Positions 15,360 through 56,835 of a DNA stretch of 64,000 bases are shown here, in pieces. Location: sequence record PX092659.1. The stretch is one strand, 5' to 3'. Positions within the stretch are counted from its first letter, which is position 1, and every line of letters begins with the position of its first letter. A model generated the notes under the pieces. It ran no database searches. It saw only the letters and a program-made list of their open reading frames with translations, and was not told the origin of the DNA. The position numbers and the translations under genes were made by a program. The stretch is from a phage.

Positions 15360-15596
15360 ATGCGTAATTTTGTAGCAAAGAATGATTTTAACCGTGCTAG
15401 CACCCATAAGTCAGCTAGGGATTATACACGACTTTCTAGTCATGAGGTAATGGATGCCTGTTATGAAGAGCTGGAAGGTAGCTGGAATGAATGGCCCGAC
15501 TTCTCTATGGAAGAAAACTGGGATGTCAGTGAGGATATGCTTCCTGGTTTTAAAGACCCCAAGAAGTGGGAGTCTATTAAAGAGACAGCTCTTTAA
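15360..15596 (+). CDS. hypothetical protein (78 aa)
   Basis: ORF in plus-strand array. Confidence 0.45.
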   Translation: MRNFVAKNDFNRASTHKSARDYTRLSSHEVMDACYEELEGSWNEWPDFSMEENWDVSEDMLPGFKDPKKWESIKETAL

Positions 15597-15624
15597 TAGT
15601 TTTCTACACAATAAAGGATAAGTT

Positions 15625-25323: not shown

Positions 25324-25359
25324 CTAATACAGCACTGAGCAAGTTCTTTAAAATTTGAC

Positions 25360-26485: not shown

Positions 26486-26671
26486 ATGTCCAAGAATGTA
26501 ATTGCGCAGCTAGAAGTTCATCGTGATAGCACTATTAACAATATTGAAGTTGAAAAGAAATACATCGAAGAACTTAAACACGATATACTAGTAAGTCTCA
26601 ATCGTCTTAATGTACGAAAAGAGTTTCTTAAAGAACTTAATGCAGCTATTGAAAAACTCAAAGCTGAGTAA
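26486..26671 (+). CDS. hypothetical protein (61 aa)
   Basis: ORF with GAGGAAA RBS. Confidence 0.45.
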   Translation: MSKNVIAQLEVHRDSTINNIEVEKKYIEELKHDILVSLNRLNVRKEFLKELNAAIEKLKAE

Positions 26672-52655: not shown

Positions 52656-53648
52656 TTACTCGCTTTCGGTGCTAGTGGTAAAAGTAGAAATATCAATACC
52701 TTTCACCATTTCATCAATCATCTCAGCGATGTTAAAACTTTGCACCATTTCTAACATAGCCGCTTCCATAGCTGCACCCGCTACCGCTTTCGCCTTTTGG
52801 TTAGCAGGGGCGTACTGGTCAACCGCTACGCTCAGCAGGTTGGCAATCACTACTCGACCAATCGGCGTATCAATATAACCTTTGATCATGAATGGTGCTT
52901 TTTTAGCCGCTACTTTCGTGATTTGGGTTAATGCAATTTTACCCGCTTCCAGTTTTGCAGCATTTACAATAGCGGATTTATTAGCGGCAACGATGTTAGC
53001 AATCTTGGTCATGGTGTTTTTTCCTTTGTTTTCAGTAGTTTGAATTTTAACGCTTTGAGTGTTAGAATTTACAGCATGGTTTTCCGTATTGTCAATAGGC
53101 TGATTTTCATCTTTCCAGAAAGTAAAACCGGCTTCCTGTATCAGATCATTATAAACATACGGGTATAACTCCGACGGTAACAAAAAATTACCGTTATCAT
53201 CAAAAGCCATTACAGCCGCAAAACGATACCCGTCATAATCTGATCGATTCCATCCAACTGATAAATAACGCCAAAATGAATCGAGAAAATTTTCTACGTC
53301 ATAAAGATCCTTATCATAAGGCTCATAATTTTCTATCGTGAAAACTTCTAAGCTCGCCCCCGCATCATAGGCTTTTACTGTATTGCCTTTTACTACGATA
53401 AAATCAGTATCTGGCCCTCGACTAGTAAGCAAGTGAGATTCCTGATTATATAAAACAAGCGTTGCCCCTTGCTTATATAACGGTAGAAAACTATTCATAT
53501 TATAAGCATCATAATCATCAAAAAAGTTATGATGAATAGTTTCAATATTGAAAACAAAATGTTTGATGCTGGTTGTTCTGCTACCGTCCAGCAGGTTACG
53601 CAGCGCACCTTTTAAGATGGTTGCGTTATCTGGTTTATATAGCCTCAT
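52656..53648 (-). CDS. hypothetical two-domain protein (330 aa)
   Basis: N-terminal ~180-aa domain, polar linker, Ala/Lys-rich helical C-terminus; first gene of the cassette. Confidence 0.55.
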   Translation of the reverse strand: MRLYKPDNATILKGALRNLLDGSRTTSIKHFVFNIETIHHNFFDDYDAYNMNSFLPLYKQGATLVLYNQESHLLTSRGPDTDFIVVKGNTVKAYDAGASLEVFTIENYEPYDKDLYDVENFLDSFWRYLSVGWNRSDYDGYRFAAVMAFDDNGNFLLPSELYPYVYNDLIQEAGFTFWKDENQPIDNTENHAVNSNTQSVKIQTTENKGKNTMTKIANIVAANKSAIVNAAKLEAGKIALTQITKVAAKKAPFMIKGYIDTPIGRVVIANLLSVAVDQYAPANQKAKAVAGAAMEAAMLEMVQSFNIAEMIDEMVKGIDISTFTTSTESE

Positions 53649-53915
53649 TTGTTCGGCCTCCCTCGTTAATCGGTGAGTGAATGATAAAGGTAATTTTCTA
53701 ACATAGGCAAATATTATTTTACCTTTTTATTTTCCTTGCCTAGCGCCTAGTTTTATGCTAACCGCGCAGCGGTGCAATAAAGAGCAAAACACGGCGAAGC
53801 CACCAGGGCGACGGGTGAAGGCTTTACTTTAATATTGCCCCACCGCATTTAGCTCGTTAGAAAGCGTTTTAGGCCGCTTAAAATTGATTGCAGTTGTTAA
53901 CACTACCTTTCTACC

Positions 53916-54045
53916 CTGTATATTTATACAGTAGGATAACCTGTGGATAAGTCTGTGGATAAGCCCTTATATCGCCGCCTATCGTGTCAAATCAAAAAGT
54001 GCTGTGGATAACGTTGTGGATAACTTAAATAACAGTGTTTCTCAC
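53916..54045. repeat. right arm of inverted repeat carrying a LexA box and four DnaA boxes
   Basis: CTGTATATTTATACAG at 53916-53931; TGTGGATAA (reverse complement of TTATCCACA) at 53942, 53954, 54003, 54015; ends agtgtttctcac. Confidence 0.8.
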
Positions 54046-54213
54046 TAACTAATTTATAAAGTTATTATATCGTAAAACATAGTTAGTTGGCTAATAGGAT
54101 TTTACCGTGATTATGAGTCTGCTAACTAATCCTGAAAAACTCATTAGCTCGCTTGCTAACTATTTTGATATAATATAATAGAGATTAAATTAATAACATA
54201 AGGAAACAATTAG

Positions 54214-54732
54214 ATGCCTAAATATAAAGATATAGATTATGACCTTTTTAATAGTTACTTTTATTATGATGAAACAGCGTTATCATTTTTACGTTGGCGG
54301 GAGGATCACGCCGTCGCAGGTGGTTTAAATGGTAATTATTGGCAAGTTGAATTATTAGACATGGGGCAATTCAAAGTACATAGAATTATCTTTTGTATAA
54401 TGAATGGCGGTATAGATAGCGAGCTAATGATTGACCATATTGATCGTAACACACGTAACAATAACATCTGGAATCTTCGCGCGGTTGATAGTTCGCAGAA
54501 TAATTATAATCGTACTCCTAGTGAGTATGAAAACTGTAAGCGTGCTAATGGTATCCCTAGAAACATTTACGTTAATAAAGTTCGCCCCCGTGATAGTTTC
54601 GGGCGTGATTATTTAACTGCTCAAATTAAGAATCCTATTACTAACAAGCGTGTTAGTAAGCCTGGTTATGATTTACAAGAGTTATTATTATGGCTTGAAG
54701 CTAAAAAAGCTGAATTTGGAATTGTCAATTAA
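54214..54732 (+). CDS. HNH endonuclease
   Basis: VHRIIFCIMNGGIDSELMIDHIDRNTRNNNIWNLRAV...QNN. Confidence 0.65.
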   Translation: MPKYKDIDYDLFNSYFYYDETALSFLRWREDHAVAGGLNGNYWQVELLDMGQFKVHRIIFCIMNGGIDSELMIDHIDRNTRNNNIWNLRAVDSSQNNYNRTPSEYENCKRANGIPRNIYVNKVRPRDSFGRDYLTAQIKNPITNKRVSKPGYDLQELLLWLEAKKAEFGIVN

Positions 54733-55121
54733 TTAATTTTATAAAATAACTCGTTTAGTCTTGATTTTTAAAAGTCAAGACCTTTTTCAACTATTTTTCA
54801 ATTTTGCGGTTGTTAAATATTTGTTAAGTCAAAAATAAGCGGCCTAAAACGCCCTAGAACGCGATGAAAGTTTTAGCCATGCCATTGCATTGCCTACCCT
54901 CGTTTATCGCTACCACGAGCTTTTTAGATTTTGTCAAGTAGGGCAAGGCAAATAAAACTGAAAAAATTACTTGCCAACCTGCTGGGTTTTATGGTATTCG
55001 CGCGCCCGTTTCCTTTAAACTTAGGTGAGCGCCGGACGCGGTGCGGTGAAACTGTGTTAGCCATATTGCTAATAATTTTGGTATAATATAATAACCAAAT
55101 GAAACTAATAGGAGAATATTA

Positions 55122-55463
55122 ATGATTGAGCTAACAAAAGATATTGATTTAGAAACTGTACTAGATAATCTTTACTATGATGAAACTAGTCCCAGTTGCC
55201 TACGGTGGAAAGTATCCCGCCCCGGTTGCGCCCTTCATGGGGTAGCAGGTACTAAAAGAAAGGATGGTTACTGGTCTGTACAGCTCAATAAAGAGCGTTA
55301 CTTAGCGCATCGTATTGTGTGGTTATTATTTAATTATAAAATAGATAGCAAACTAGTAATTGATCATATTGATCGTAACCCTAGTAATAATTTTATTGAT
55401 AACTTACGGTTAGTAACTCAAGCCGAAAACAACCAAAATAAGGGAGGCTATAGAAAGGCGTAA
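55122..55463 (+). CDS. HNH endonuclease-like protein (paralog of 54214..54732)
   Basis: AHRIVWLLFNYKIDSKLVIDHIDRNPSNNFIDNLRLV...ENN. Confidence 0.6.
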   Translation: MIELTKDIDLETVLDNLYYDETSPSCLRWKVSRPGCALHGVAGTKRKDGYWSVQLNKERYLAHRIVWLLFNYKIDSKLVIDHIDRNPSNNFIDNLRLVTQAENNQNKGGYRKA

Positions 55464-55595
55464 AACTTACGTTTCTTTACAAAAATAAGGTTGCGCCATT
55501 TTCGGGAATCTCTTACTATTTATCACGTAGGGCGGCAATGACGAACTACACGGCGGGAAGTTTACCGCCACGCTCTTTAAAAATTGGGTACATCT

Positions 55596-55880
55596 TAAAG
55601 CCTATCGGCGGTAAACTTATTCATTATAAGGAATCGACGATATGAAACAAACTCTTTTGATCACTGGCAAGCCTAGCAAGGCACTAGATAGCAAAACAAA
55701 AAATTTGTTGACAGTAGCGCAAAGATCGATAAAATATCGATTTAAGCAGTACAAGAAAGGCCGCCAGCAAGGTCTAGAAATGATCTGGCGAAATATTATG
55801 ATTGACTTAAAAGAAAATCATAAAAAATTGCAAAAAACCGTTTGACAACCTAGCCGATAGGTTTTAAGATGTACCCAGTT
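55596..55880. repeat. 24-bp inverted repeat pair flanking a 67-aa ORF
   Basis: 55596-55619 gggtacatcttaaagcctatcggc versus 55857-55880 gccgataggttttaagatgtaccc (23/24 complementary). Confidence 0.8.
55642..55845 (+). CDS. small basic hypothetical protein (67 aa)
   Basis: ORF bracketed by the 24-bp inverted repeats. Confidence 0.4.
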   Translation: MKQTLLITGKPSKALDSKTKNLLTVAQRSIKYRFKQYKKGRQQGLEMIWRNIMIDLKENHKKLQKTV

Positions 55881-56076
55881 CGATAAGAGCGATAACTTGA
55901 TAAAATTTGACGGTCGGTGCTTACCATAATGCATCCCGCCCCCTAACTGGGATATAGCGGCCTACGTGGAGTTCTTTAAATCGATTATATTGGCGAGCGG
56001 ATTGTTACTTATTACCTGCTGTTACTTTCTAGCAGGTAATGCGGAACAATCCACCAAATAACTCGGAGTTTATATT

Positions 56077-56328
56077 ATGCAAAACGTTATTACCGCGCCT
56101 AAAATTGGTCAATCCGTCTTCATTCCTTTCGTTACTAAAACGGATGAATTAACCGGAAAGGCCGAACGCATTAAAGGTGCGGCGCTTATGCCGTTCGATA
56201 CAATCGACGCGGTATATGCTGAAACTGAACGCAGTAACAACGGCAAGCCTGTTTTTAGCGTTCGCGTTAAATCCGGTGACGTTGTAAAGGTTGTTCAACG
56301 TAACGAAAAATGGGAAGCTGTTTTATAA
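56077..56328 (+). CDS. hypothetical protein (83 aa)
   Basis: ORF with RBS; followed by hairpin atatccccc/gggggatat. Confidence 0.45.
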   Translation: MQNVITAPKIGQSVFIPFVTKTDELTGKAERIKGAALMPFDTIDAVYAETERSNNGKPVFSVRVKSGDVVKVVQRNEKWEAVL

Positions 56329-56427
56329 TTTAGTGTTAACTTTATATCCCCCTAGTAGTTCGGGGGATATAACGATTAACATTATGTTAATCTTATCCCT
56401 TAAATTAAACTAATAGGAGTTTTTACC

Positions 56428-56835
56428 ATGACTAACGTTAAAACCGCAAAATTTTCTTGGAATGAAGAAAACACCCAGCAGGCTGTTACCATGTATCAGC
56501 AGTTAATTAACGAAAACGGTTTAGATTTCGCAAATAGCGACGGTTTAAAAGAAATTGCGAAAGCAGTTGGCGCGGCTTCTCCCGTGTCCGTTCGCTCAAA
56601 ATTGACCAGTGCAAAAGCGTATCAGAAAAGCGATAAGCCGCGCAAAGTTGGCGGCGGTAGCTCAATCCGCAAAGCGCATTATGTGCGCGTTATTGCAAAA
56701 CATGCCATCGATTCCGGCATTATCAAAGACGCTGACGATCTGGCATCACTGGAAAGCGCAAAATTGGAAACGCTGGACGCCGTGGCGCAACTGTTAGGCG
56801 TTGCCGATGAAGTGAAACAAGCCGCAGGCGAATAA
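56428..56835 (+). CDS. hypothetical protein (135 aa)
   Basis: ORF with AGGAG RBS; followed by palindrome agtggggaatattccccact. Confidence 0.5.
   Translation: MTNVKTAKFSWNEENTQQAVTMYQQLINENGLDFANSDGLKEIAKAVGAASPVSVRSKLTSAKAYQKSDKPRKVGGGSSIRKAHYVRVIAKHAIDSGIIKDADDLASLESAKLETLDAVAQLLGVADEVKQAAGE

What the first reader, a model, noticed from the sequence alone, without database searches (positions are those of the whole stretch)
55596..55880. A 67-aa ORF bracketed by 24-bp near-perfect inverted repeats
gggtacatcttaaagcctatcggc (55596-55619) and gccgataggttttaagatgtaccc (55857-55880) are reverse complements with one mismatch and flank a 237-bp unit containing ORF 55642..55845. This resembles a miniature inverted-repeat element or a symmetric regulatory cassette, and is the second inverted-repeat-bounded unit in the pre-early region.
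Basis: seen in the sequence. Interest (0 to 1): 0.5.

Follow-up and report, generated by a model that had tools for sequence, protein, structure and literature searches.

The report
Phage copy of rRNA processing stem
The inverted repeat is real, but it is not a mobile element: it most likely forms a long RNA helix that, with an adjacent host-type 'boxA' antitermination signal, loops out a small toxic gene (hdi) in the first transcripts of a T5-like phage, which is the layout bacteria use to transcribe and process ribosomal RNA.

Summary
The 24-nt arms exist, but at 55586-55609 and 55853-55876, not at the reported coordinates. They have one mismatch, extend to 39 nt, and are far beyond chance. 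The window is the pre-early region of a T5-like phage. The ORF is hdi (T5.008), and the right arm is the spacer/-10 core of the known promoter P_D/E20. All 78 related loci carry the repeat at the same place, once per terminal-repeat copy, so it is not a MITE. The arms co-vary: there are compensatory swaps, a compensated 1-bp insertion, and 26 G·U versus 3 A·C cells in + sense. In Klebsiella, Erwinia, Serratia, Pectobacterium and Proteus phages the arm sequences are unrelated, yet they are still complementary at the same position. The left arm directly follows a hairpin plus a perfect match to the published boxA consensus GYTCTTTAANA. In most genera a second boxA follows the right arm. E. coli rrnB has the same layout: hairpin, boxA, leader-trailer helix, cargo, spacer boxA. 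Best reading: an rrn-type Nus/boxA module whose leader-trailer helix, a likely RNase III substrate, brackets a swappable small-gene cargo. Nus binding and cleavage are inferred, not shown. I found no prior report linking T5 to boxA.

The parts
55491..55519 (+). Candidate upstream promoter 'P_up' (TTGCGC, 17 nt, TACTAT; predicted start about 55526). It would make the transcript that carries both arms.
   Evidence: Across T5-like, Epseptimavirus, Sugarlandvirus, Erwinia and Pectobacterium phages the hexamers are invariant or near-invariant (TTGnnn / TAnTAT) at constant spacing, while the spacer sequence varies. It is NOT detected by the consensus scan (-35 matches 3 of 6) and has not been characterised experimentally. 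Its role is inferred.
55552..55569 (+). boxB-like hairpin: GGCGG, loop GAAGTTTA, CCGCC
   Evidence: Predicted in the single-sequence fold and in the RNAalifold consensus. In L011/L016 the stem is kept while the loop is inverted. A hairpin precedes boxA in every genus examined, as it does in E. coli rrnB.
55572..55582 (+). boxA element GCTCTTTAAAA (NusB/NusE binding-site consensus)
   Evidence: Perfect match to the published gamma-proteobacterial consensus GYTCTTTAANA. It is identical over 13 nt to the E. coli rrnB spacer boxA. In oriented relatives the consensus hits only the expected positions, always on the transcribed strand, and in rrnB it hits only the two known boxAs.
55586..55609 (+). 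Left arm, the 5' (leader) strand of the long-range helix. Pairing extends outward to 55571, so it includes boxA.
55642..55845 (+). Cargo gene hdi (T5.008 homologue, 67 aa; RBS AAGGA at 55628-55632)
   Evidence: 85% identical to T5p008. It has a conserved core Y..G.QQGL.M.W.N.M..L down to 35-46% identity in Sugarlandvirus and Myunavirus homologues. It matches phrog_4718. In T5 it is named hdi, a toxic FtsZ-directed division inhibitor that is dispensable for infection.
55708..55735 (+). Promoter P_H22 (TTGACA, 16 nt, TAAAAT), located inside hdi
   Evidence: Consensus scan matches 11 of 12 positions. Annotated in T5 record AY692264. Active in vivo by primer extension.
55842..55870 (+). Promoter P_D/E20 (TTGACA, 17 nt, TAAGAT). 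The hdi stop codon TGA (55843-55845) lies inside the -35 hexamer. The predicted start is about 55877.
   Evidence: Consensus scan matches 10 of 12 positions. Annotated in T5. Described as overlapping hdi.
55853..55876 (+). Right arm, the 3' (trailer) strand of the helix. At the DNA level it is the spacer, -10 and discriminator of P_D/E20.
55877..55891 (+). Outer extension of the trailer strand (AGTTCGATAAGAGCG). AAGAGCG pairs with CGCTCTT of boxA. This feature is specific to the Tequintavirus lineage.
   Evidence: helix 1 is 88% paired, with a U-A / U·G alternation. In other genera this position holds a second boxA instead.

Best explanation
The inverted repeat is the leader-trailer helix of an rrn-operon-like RNA module in the pre-early (first-step-transfer) operon of a T5-like phage. 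A transcript that starts upstream of hdi first makes a small hairpin and a consensus boxA (55572-55582), immediately followed by the 5' arm. That transcript would start at the conserved candidate promoter at 55491-55519, or further upstream through the HNH gene. By analogy with rRNA operons, NusB/NusE (with NusA, NusG and SuhB) bind boxA and tether it to RNA polymerase, giving a fast, termination-resistant complex. The hdi cistron is looped out. When the 3' arm emerges it pairs with the tethered 5' arm. The resulting duplex has 24-28 contiguous bp (35 bp with the outer extension) and an energy of -42 to -57 kcal/mol, as strong as the E. coli 16S leader-trailer helix. A duplex of that length is a natural RNase III substrate. 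Cleavage would separate a short hdi mRNA with duplex ends, together with the boxA leader, from the downstream 007-A2-005-A1-dmp message. The new 5' end would lie close to the start site of P_D/E20. The tethered loop may also limit translation of the toxic Hdi until it is cut, as at lambda nutL-N and at suhB. In most genera a second boxA follows the 3' arm, re-arming polymerase and arming transcripts from the internal promoter. In Tequintaviruses, including this window, that position instead pairs with boxA itself. SHOWN: the repeat, its conservation and covariation, the boxA consensus and its fixed adjacency to the arm, the same layout in rrnB, and the known promoters and hdi. INFERRED: the upstream start site, Nus binding, RNase III cleavage, and the consequences for hdi and downstream genes. 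My rough sub-confidences are: RNA helix under selection 0.85, functional boxA 0.7, RNase III processing 0.5.
For: (1) The repeat is real and non-random. (2) It dominates the MFE and centroid folds of the + strand (z = -10.7). The + strand is about 10 kcal/mol more stable than the - strand. Duplex energies are -42.3 (+) versus -38.0 (-) for the core, and -57.5 for the extended arms versus -58.4 for the rrnB helix. (3) Covariation was scored on 22 distinct arm pairs from 78 loci. The core helix is 98.2% paired. Four pairs change on both sides (0 of 500 shuffles reach this), and slid registers give only 24-45% pairing. Non-Watson-Crick cells in the core are 26 G·U versus 3 A·C and 0 others in + sense; the G·U states are common polymorphisms and the A·C states are singletons. 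There is a C-G to U·G to U-A series at arm position 6, a T-A to A-T swap in Epseptimavirus, and a compensated 1-bp insertion in L017. (4) RNAalifold recovers the helix de novo and leaves boxA unpaired. (5) In Sugarlandvirus, Erwinia KEY, Serratia Slocum, Pectobacterium My1 (two modules), metagenomic L121 (two modules) and Proteus Novosibvirus the arm sequences are unrelated but complementary, and they sit at the same place. In all 11 representatives the arm starts -1 to +5 nt after a boxA and has a long-range partner scoring 15-28, against a null mean of 10.2 and a 95th percentile of 14. The 3' arm is followed by the next boxA within 0-16 nt, except in the two Tequintavirus representatives (window and T5), which lack a second consensus boxA. 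The last boxA, before the main genes, has no partner. (6) boxA matches the published consensus. (7) E. coli rrnB shows the same order and spacing twice: hairpin, boxA, then leader strand. The same repeat finder returns its leader-trailer helix starting inside boxA. (8) The published model holds that boxA tethering delivers the leader strand to the trailer, that a helix longer than 17 bp is needed, and that the helix carries the RNase III site. (9) A full-length hdi mRNA must start upstream of the RBS at 55628, and no terminator separates hdi from the right arm, so transcripts carrying both arms must exist.
Against: No start site upstream of hdi has been mapped. P_up has a weak -35 and fails the consensus scan. 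In Tequintaviruses, including this window, there is no consensus boxA downstream of P_H22 or P_D/E20. The only candidate is a variable near-match, GTTCTTTAAAT, at 55971-55981. So the two strongest promoters may make transcripts that are not Nus-modified, which weakens an 'antitermination of the whole operon' role in this lineage. The outer extension pairs with the 5' half of boxA, which would compete with NusB/NusE. The right arm is also constrained as a promoter core, so part of its conservation is unrelated to pairing, and gene conversion between the arms could produce some of the 'compensatory' changes. A few A·C mismatches occur (L029, L144, KEY, L121). By independent position-states the G·U excess is only about 17 versus 5. 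The one Vibrio phage examined has a hairpin and a boxA-like motif but no helix. hdi is dispensable in the laboratory. RNase III cleavage and Nus binding were not testable here.
Confidence: 0.62

Rival explanations
1. An RNA helix acting alone. The repeat is a long-range RNA stem that controls hdi mRNA stability, translation or processing, but the adjacent boxA-like motif does not recruit Nus factors. It might be a Rho-loading or RNase E site, or be conserved for another reason.
For: All the pairing evidence applies equally. boxA function was not tested. boxA and rut sequences can overlap. In Tequintaviruses the helix extension would sequester half of boxA.
Against: The motif matches the functional consensus exactly. 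It is identical over 13-17 nt to the host rrn boxAs. It always follows a hairpin on the transcribed strand and recurs 2-4 times per pre-early region across subfamilies, while its surroundings diverge. Its spacing to the arm (-1 to +5 nt) is fixed, as in rrnB.
Confidence: 0.17
2. Paired DNA operators. Both arms bind the same phage or host protein (for example, one involved in the A1-dependent shut-off of pre-early promoters). The 267-bp loop between them would silence P_H22 and P_D/E20.
For: In most lineages the right arm covers the spacer, -10 and start of a strong promoter, which is where an operator would sit. A1 is reported to dampen pre-early promoters.
Against: The arm sequences are unrelated between genera even though A1 and A2 are conserved. 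Every position of 24-28 nt stays complementary, bulges and indels included, which is unlike a protein site. Mismatches are biased toward G·U on one strand. In module 2 of L121 the 3' arm lies downstream of the -10. The left arm's position is tied to boxA, not to a promoter.
Confidence: 0.08
3. A mobile cassette (MITE-like, or a moron bounded by terminal inverted repeats) that inserted between an ancestral promoter leader and gene 007.
For: Terminal inverted repeats bracket a short unit. In several genera a direct repeat of about 15 nt flanks it. The gene content between the arms differs among phages: hdi; a second ORF plus hdi; or a different ORF with no hdi.
Against: There is a single copy in the window. 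No empty site was found in 78 loci or in any enterobacterial-host genus. The 'target duplication' is the boxA signal, and it is absent on the right side in Tequintaviruses. The arms are lineage-specific and co-vary. No transposase is present. The HNH gene next door is a separate insertion whose boundary (about 55467) lies outside the unit.
Confidence: 0.04
4. An invertible promoter segment (a phase-variation-type switch) in which the arms are recombination sites flanking P_H22.
For: Inverted repeats of about 24 bp flank a 243-bp segment containing a strong promoter.
Against: The segment has the same orientation in all 78 loci and all genera. No invertase is annotated nearby. Inversion would destroy P_D/E20 by separating its -35 from its -10.
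Confidence: 0.02
5. A by-product with no function. The left arm would be a decayed inverted copy of the P_D/E20 core (an old divergent promoter) that is kept similar by gene conversion.
For: The right arm is a promoter core. Inverted repeats can be homogenised by recombination.
Against: On the minus strand the left arm has no -35 and is not predicted as a promoter. In Sugarlandvirus the -10 hexamer is not preserved in the left arm, though the pairing is. An inverted repeat at this position has been re-created with unrelated sequences in at least seven lineages. G·U states persist at high frequency on one strand only.
Confidence: 0.04

Closest known systems
E. coli rrn operon leader: boxB hairpin, boxA, and the 16S (and 23S) leader-trailer helix processed by RNase III
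   Same: The order is the same: promoter(s), hairpin, boxA, then immediately the 5' strand of a long-range helix whose 3' strand lies beyond the cargo, then a second hairpin-boxA before the next unit. boxA is identical over 13-17 nt, and the helix is of comparable length and energy.
   Different: The cargo is one or two small protein-coding genes of 0.2-0.65 kb, not a structural RNA. The 3' strand doubles as the core of an internal sigma-70 promoter. I did not identify a boxC. In Tequintaviruses the second boxA is replaced by a sequence that pairs with the first.
Lambda nutL / N-leader (boxA-boxB nut site, RNase III hairpin, translational repression of N by the tethered elongation complex)
   Same: A phage early leader carries a boxA of nearly the same sequence, followed by an RNase III-type duplex and a downstream gene whose translation could be affected by the boxA-polymerase loop.
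   Different: In lambda the order is boxA then boxB, and it depends on the phage N protein. Here the hairpin precedes boxA, as in rrn, and I did not search for an N-like protein. The lambda RNase III site is a local hairpin, not a helix bracketing a gene.
Phage T7 early-region RNase III sites downstream of tandem strong promoters A1-A3 (from general knowledge)
   Same: Several tandem strong host-RNAP promoters are followed by double-stranded RNA elements that would cut a polycistronic early transcript into defined mRNAs.
   Different: T7 sites are local irregular hairpins between genes, with no boxA. This comparison rests on my own knowledge and was not tested here.
Non-rRNA boxA targets (suhB 5' UTR; CRISPR array leaders)
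   Same: A consensus boxA lies in a leader close to a start codon (60 nt before hdi), where Nus factors can repress translation or protect untranslated RNA from Rho.
   Different: Those elements have no associated leader-trailer helix and are chromosomal.
T5 'Repeat Region 1' inverted repeats IRA/IRA' (Wang 2005 nomenclature, discussed by Davison)
   Same: Probably the same physical repeat. [quoted passage not shown]
   Different: It is described as part of an 'untranslated' repeat region with no assigned function. I could not read the original table, so the identification is not verified.
MITEs / terminal-inverted-repeat transposons
   Same: Short inverted repeats bound a unit of about 290 bp.
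   Different: It is single-copy and fixed at one locus, has no true target-site duplication and no transposase, and its arms co-vary within lineages.

Membership tests
rrn-type boxA / Nus-factor antitermination element | RNA motif matching the boxA consensus (GYTCTTTAANA in gamma-proteobacteria) on the transcribed strand | tested here: met
   55572-55582 GCTCTTTAAAA is a perfect match. It is conserved in all relatives, on the transcribed strand only.
rrn-type boxA / Nus-factor antitermination element | Promoter-proximal position in a transcribed leader | tested here: inconclusive
   A conserved promoter-like element ends 52 nt upstream, and hdi must be transcribed through this region. However, no start site has been mapped and the consensus scan misses the element.
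rrn-type boxA / Nus-factor antitermination element | boxB-type hairpin 5' of boxA (the rrn order) | tested here: met
   The hairpin at 55552-55569 ends 2 nt before boxA. The same arrangement occurs in rrnB and in every genus examined.
rrn-type boxA / Nus-factor antitermination element | Binds NusB/NusE and makes RNA polymerase termination-resistant | not testable with these tools
   Needs ChIP/RIP, nus mutants or in vitro assays.
rRNA-type leader-trailer helix (RNase III processing stem) | Long-range complementarity of more than 17 bp between sequences flanking the cargo | tested here: met
   24-28 contiguous bp, 35 with the extension, at -42 to -57 kcal/mol.
rRNA-type leader-trailer helix (RNase III processing stem) | The 5' strand lies directly downstream of boxA | tested here: met
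   The gap is -1 to +5 nt in 11 phages. The same holds in rrnB.
rRNA-type leader-trailer helix (RNase III processing stem) | Pairing maintained by covariation while the sequence drifts | tested here: met
   Arm sequences are unrelated in other genera.
rRNA-type leader-trailer helix (RNase III processing stem) | The cargo is a structural rRNA | tested here: not met
   The cargo is protein-coding: hdi and other small ORFs. It therefore works like, but is not a member of, the rRNA helices.
rRNA-type leader-trailer helix (RNase III processing stem) | Cleaved by RNase III | not testable with these tools
   Inferred from duplex length only.
Lambda-type nut site | boxA followed by a boxB hairpin that is bound by a phage N protein | tested here: not met
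   The hairpin precedes boxA, and no hairpin directly follows it. Whether an N-like protein exists was not tested.
MITE / TIR transposable element | Multiple dispersed copies sharing the same terminal repeats | tested here: not met
   The window holds only these two arms, even with up to 3 mismatches allowed. Relatives carry one unit per terminal-repeat copy.
MITE / TIR transposable element | Target-site duplication and occupied/empty-site polymorphism | tested here: not met
   The flanking direct repeat is boxA and is missing on the right side in this window. No empty site occurs in 78 loci or in other genera.
Invertible promoter switch | Both orientations of the segment occur; an invertase is present | tested here: not met
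   Only one orientation is seen in all loci. No recombinase is annotated nearby.

The most novel reading that the evidence does not exclude
T5-like phages (Demerecviridae infecting enterobacteria) have copied the architecture of the host ribosomal RNA operon into their first-step-transfer DNA. The elements are tandem strong promoters, a hairpin plus boxA that recruits the host Nus/SuhB antitermination complex without a phage N protein, and boxA-tethered leader-trailer helices cut by RNase III. The phages use these helices as fixed 'slots' that excise, and perhaps translationally gate, small and often toxic host-takeover genes such as hdi. The cargo can be swapped between phages while the frame stays constant.
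Probability: 0.45. Interest if true: 0.8.

Novelty: new variant of a known kind. Interest (0 to 1): 0.66.

Why it matters
How T5 drives and then limits expression of its pre-early genes, during the few minutes when only 8% of the genome is in the cell, is still unresolved. Only three pre-early promoters are characterised, and attempts to delete hdi failed because fragments of the locus carrying P_H22 and P_D/E20 could not be cloned. If the module works as proposed, three things follow. First, it would be an N-independent, rrn-type use of host Nus factors by a virulent phage. Second, it would extend the boxA-tethered 'leader meets trailer' mechanism from rRNA to protein-coding cargo. Third, it would explain why a 'non-coding repeat region' is more conserved than the neighbouring genes. 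It also yields directly testable predictions: rnc, nusB, nusE and suhB host mutants, boxA point mutations, and compensatory arm mutations. Finally, it identifies a conserved frame that could be used to insert cargo into T5-like phages.

Tried and rejected
(1) Rfam scan of 54800-56500 at E<=1 gave only a sub-threshold miRNA hit on the downstream hairpin and nothing for the unit. (2) An IMG/VR scan with the boxA-flank motif returned only contigs I already held. (3) My first arm tally read reverse-stored loci on the wrong strand and created false A·C mismatches; I corrected it by requiring boxA upstream. (4) Left arm as a divergent minus-strand promoter: it has no -35 and is not predicted. (5) Intrinsic terminator after the hairpin or after the helix: none was predicted. 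(6) Alternative local pairing of 55559-55570 with 55607-55618 (-19.2 kcal/mol): it is not preserved in L011/L016, where the loop is inverted without compensation, so I set it aside. (7) The other boxA-consensus hits in the window lack leader context. 15588 spans the stop codon of an upstream gene, 25343 is in a hairpin loop upstream of a promoter, and 26626 lies inside an ORF. (9) Davison's 2015 review, which might give IRA/IRA' coordinates, is not held. (10) Literature searches for T5 with boxA, Nus or RNase III found nothing relevant. Older subscription papers are not searchable, so prior description cannot be excluded.
Full report
OBSERVATION. They are reverse complements with one mismatch and are 243 nt apart. 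They bracket ORF 55642..55845 (67 aa). With up to three mismatches allowed, the 24-mer occurs nowhere else in the 64 kb, and none of 100 dinucleotide shuffles produced a match. The complementarity continues outward to 39 nt (55571-55609 / 55853-55891, 85%).

WHERE WE ARE. The region is 90-96% identical to the terminal-repeat (first-step-transfer, pre-early) DNA of T5-like phages. In the annotated T5 record the ORF is T5p008. Promoter P-H22 lies inside it, and promoter P-D/E20 overlaps its end. In the window these correspond to TTGACA-16-TAAAAT (55708-55735) and TTGACA-17-TAAGAT (55842-55870). The right arm is therefore the spacer, -10 hexamer and discriminator of P_D/E20, and the ORF's stop codon sits inside its -35 hexamer. 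Recent literature names the gene hdi. It is a toxic host-division inhibitor thought to target FtsZ, it is dispensable in the laboratory, and it is described as overlapped by these two promoters. P_H22 is active in vivo by primer extension. The ORF is a real gene: homologues keep an invariant core, Y..G.QQGL.M.W.N.M..L, down to 35-46% identity in three subfamilies, and it matches phrog_4718. The neighbouring HNH gene (55122-55463) is a separate insertion. Its match is present in only 15 of 450 records, and its boundary at about 55467 lies outside the unit.

NOT A MOBILE ELEMENT. I collected relatives anchored on the downstream gene, so that an empty site could have been found, and also on the upstream leader. 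All 78 loci with T5-type arms carry the repeat at the same position and in the same orientation. There is one unit per terminal-repeat copy and no other copy in the window. The gene content inside does vary: hdi alone in 73 loci, a phrog_21018 ORF plus hdi in 5, an 'HKDG' ORF plus hdi in 1, and the HKDG ORF with no hdi in 2. The frame is thus more conserved than its cargo.

THE ARMS ARE KEPT COMPLEMENTARY, AND THE SIGNAL POINTS TO + STRAND RNA. Among 22 distinct arm pairs the 24-28-bp helix is 98.2% paired. Four pairs change on both sides (0 of 500 shuffles reach this), and sliding the partner by 1-3 columns drops pairing to 24-45%. Examples are a T-A to A-T swap in Epseptimaviruses, a C-G to U·G to U-A series at arm position 6, and a 1-bp insertion present in both arms of L017. 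Every non-Watson-Crick cell in the core is a transition-type mismatch. In + sense, 26 are G·U and 3 are A·C. The G·U states are common polymorphisms and the A·C states are singletons (an earlier tally was wrong because of strand orientation). Counted as independent position-states across all lineages, the excess is more modest, at roughly 17 to 5. As RNA, the + strand from 55529 to 55900 folds with this helix in both the MFE and the centroid structures (z = -10.7). It is about 10 kcal/mol more stable than the minus strand, and duplex energies agree. RNAalifold on 19 full-length sequences recovers the helix de novo.

THE STRUCTURE SURVIVES COMPLETE SEQUENCE TURNOVER. Several phages have arm sequences unrelated to T5's, yet the arms are complementary and occupy the equivalent position, bracketing one or two small ORFs. 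These are Klebsiella phages (Sugarlandvirus), Erwinia phage KEY, Serratia phage Slocum, Pectobacterium phage My1 (a different subfamily, with two successive modules), a metagenomic relative L121 (two modules) and a Proteus Novosibvirus. In most of them the 3' arm again overlaps the -10 of an internal promoter. In module 2 of L121 it lies downstream of the -10, so promoter overlap is not the defining property.

THE KEY NEIGHBOUR: boxA. The left arm is directly preceded by CGCTCTTTAAAAATT. The core GCTCTTTAAAA (55572-55582) matches exactly the published gamma-proteobacterial boxA consensus GYTCTTTAANA, which is the NusB/NusE binding site. A GGCGG-N8-CCGCC hairpin (55552-55569) precedes it. In the oriented relatives the consensus hits only the expected positions, always on the transcribed strand. 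In a control locus, E. coli rrnB, it hits exactly the two known rrn boxAs. The three other hits in the window lack leader context. In Epseptimavirus, Sugarlandvirus, KEY, Slocum, My1, L121 and the Proteus phage, a second boxA (typically CGCTCTTTAACAATTTGG) follows the 3' arm within 0-16 nt. These motifs are identical over 13-17 nt to the rrnB leader or spacer boxAs. I ran a quantitative test on 11 representative phages. The sequence starting -1 to +5 nt after the first boxA has a long-range partner scoring 15-28, against a null mean of 10.2 and a 95th percentile of 14 (n = 1320). The last boxA, before the 007-A2-A1 genes, has none.

COMPARISON WITH THE HOST rRNA OPERON. In E. coli rrnB the order is promoters, hairpin, boxA (416-431), then immediately the leader strand ATCAGACAATCTGTGTGGGCAC. 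Its partner lies just past the 16S rRNA. The spacer then repeats hairpin and boxA before the 23S helix. The same repeat finder that reported the phage repeat reports the rrnB leader-trailer helix with its left arm starting inside boxA. Its duplex energy (-58.4) equals that of the extended phage arms (-57.5). Published work holds that boxA is necessary and sufficient to assemble the antitermination complex. [quoted passage not shown] A helix longer than 17 bp is essential, and it carries the RNase III site. The phage unit has the same parts in the same order and spacing, with a protein-coding cargo instead of rRNA.

MOST LIKELY MECHANISM. A transcript starting upstream of hdi makes the hairpin and boxA. 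Nus factors tether boxA to the polymerase, hdi is looped out, and the 3' arm pairs with the 5' arm as it is made. The resulting duplex of 24-35 bp is probably cut by RNase III. That would separate a short hdi RNA and the boxA leader from the downstream 007-A2-005-A1-dmp message, at a point close to the P_D/E20 start (about 55877). The tethered loop could also hold down translation of the toxic Hdi until it is cut, as reported for suhB and for lambda N at nutL. Where a second boxA follows, it would re-arm the polymerase and serve transcripts from the internal promoter.

WHAT IS SHOWN AND WHAT IS INFERRED. Shown: the repeat, its covariation, its persistence across genera, the boxA match and its fixed adjacency to the arm, and the rrnB parallel. 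Inferred: the upstream start site, Nus binding, RNase III cleavage, and the effects on hdi. The candidate promoter (TTGCGC-17-TACTAT, 55491-55519) has invariant hexamers and a variable spacer across genera, but it fails the consensus scan and has not been tested. Still, any full-length hdi mRNA must begin upstream of 55628, and no terminator precedes the right arm.

WEAK POINTS. In Tequintaviruses, including this window, no consensus boxA follows P_D/E20. Instead the flank AGTTCGATAAGAGCG pairs with the first boxA. The nearest candidate downstream, GTTCTTTAAAT at 55971-55981, is off-consensus and variable. Transcripts from the two strongest promoters may therefore not be Nus-modified in this lineage, and the helix may switch boxA off rather than hand over to a second one. 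The right arm's conservation is partly due to its promoter role, and gene conversion between the arms could mimic some compensation. A Vibrio phage has a hairpin and a boxA-like motif but no helix.

RIVALS. I considered and scored five alternatives in the rival-explanation section. They are a helix acting without Nus coupling, paired DNA operators, a MITE-like cassette, an invertible switch, and a functionless decayed promoter copy. The main arguments against the DNA-level readings are the complete sequence turnover of the arms while A1 and A2 stay conserved, pairing maintained at every position including indels, strand-biased wobble pairs, and positioning relative to boxA rather than to a promoter.

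NOVELTY. The physical repeat is probably the IRA/IRA' pair of T5 'Repeat Region 1'. That region is known to be conserved, is described as untranslated, and has no assigned function; I could not verify the coordinates. The promoters and hdi are already known. I found no paper linking T5-like phages with boxA, Nus factors, RNase III or a leader-trailer helix, though older subscription literature is not searchable. I therefore rate the interpretation as a new variant of a known kind: an rrn-type boxA plus leader-trailer module in a virulent phage, with protein-coding and swappable cargo and with the trailer strand doubling as a promoter core.

Noticed in passing
window 55999-56052: A strong local hairpin (22-nt arms, 86% complementary, 10-nt loop) lies in the 5' UTR of the 007 homologue, about 25 nt before its RBS. 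It shows clear compensatory variation across relatives (ACCTGC/GCAGGT, ATCTGC/GCAGAT, and AGCG.../...CGCT in Epseptimavirus). It is likely an mRNA-stabilising or RNase III-type element of the P_D/E20 leader. Rfam gave only a sub-threshold miRNA hit.
   Followed up: partly
window 55122-55463, and 54214-54732 with 54144-54180 / 55057-55093: There are two paralogous HNH endonuclease genes, each preceded by a duplicated promoter-like sequence (TTGCTAA...TATAATATAATA). Only 15 of 450 related records match across the second gene, and its right boundary at about 55467 falls exactly at the start of the conserved leader. It is a homing-type insertion polymorphism separate from the unit studied.
   Followed up: partly
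window 53931-54023, minus strand: A cluster of four perfect TTATCCACA DnaA-box sequences plus one near copy. It matches the DnaA-box arrays that Davison described in T5 repeat regions 2 and 3.
   Followed up: no
window 53775-53785, minus strand; L158 1486-1496 (-); L160 2788-2798 (-): The leader of the divergent pre-early operon (011 homologue, ORF 52656-53648 on the minus strand) contains a near-boxA, GCTCTTTATTG (two mismatches to the consensus). In Serratia phage Slocum and the Proteus phage, the equivalent leader carries a perfect consensus boxA just upstream of the RBS. Both divergent pre-early operons may therefore use boxA.
   Followed up: partly
window 55971-55981: GTTCTTTAAAT is a one-mismatch boxA-like motif in the P_D/E20 leader, at the position where My1 has a perfect third boxA. 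It varies (TTCCTT) in about a quarter of T5-like relatives, so its function is doubtful.
   Followed up: partly
window 55465-55485 (consensus in relatives: CTTTACGTTTCTTTACAA): A direct repeat, CTTTAC-N5-CTTTACAA, lies immediately upstream of the candidate promoter's -35. It is conserved from T5 to Klebsiella and Erwinia phages and could be an UP element or a regulator site. In the window the HNH insertion has altered the first copy (ACTTAC).
   Followed up: no
L011 and L016, position equivalent to window 55557-55564: The 8-nt loop of the boxB-like hairpin is exactly inverted (GAAGTTTA to TAAACTTC) while the stem is kept. This is the signature of a hairpin template-switch mutation and is incidental evidence that the hairpin forms.
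   Followed up: no
window 55559-55570 with 55607-55618: AAGTTTACCGCC and GGCGGTAAACTT are perfectly complementary (about 11 bp predicted, -19.2 kcal/mol). If paired, they would enclose boxA and most of the left arm in a loop, giving a possible alternative conformation. The pairing is not maintained in L011/L016.
   Followed up: partly
L029/L030 (IMGVR_UViG_2974666860), between arms 2038-2061 and 2279-2302: This phage has no hdi. The slot between the same arms holds a different 56-aa ORF (MKIKETANNITVEQAEAV...HKDG...), which in other phages sits next to hdi. P_H22, which lies inside hdi, is therefore also absent.
   Followed up: partly
window 15588-15598, 25343-25353, 26626-26636: Three further exact matches to the boxA consensus (4 in the window against 0.8 expected). 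One spans a stop codon, one is in the loop of a 13-bp hairpin upstream of a TTGACT...TATAAT promoter, and one lies inside an ORF. None has leader context.
   Followed up: yes
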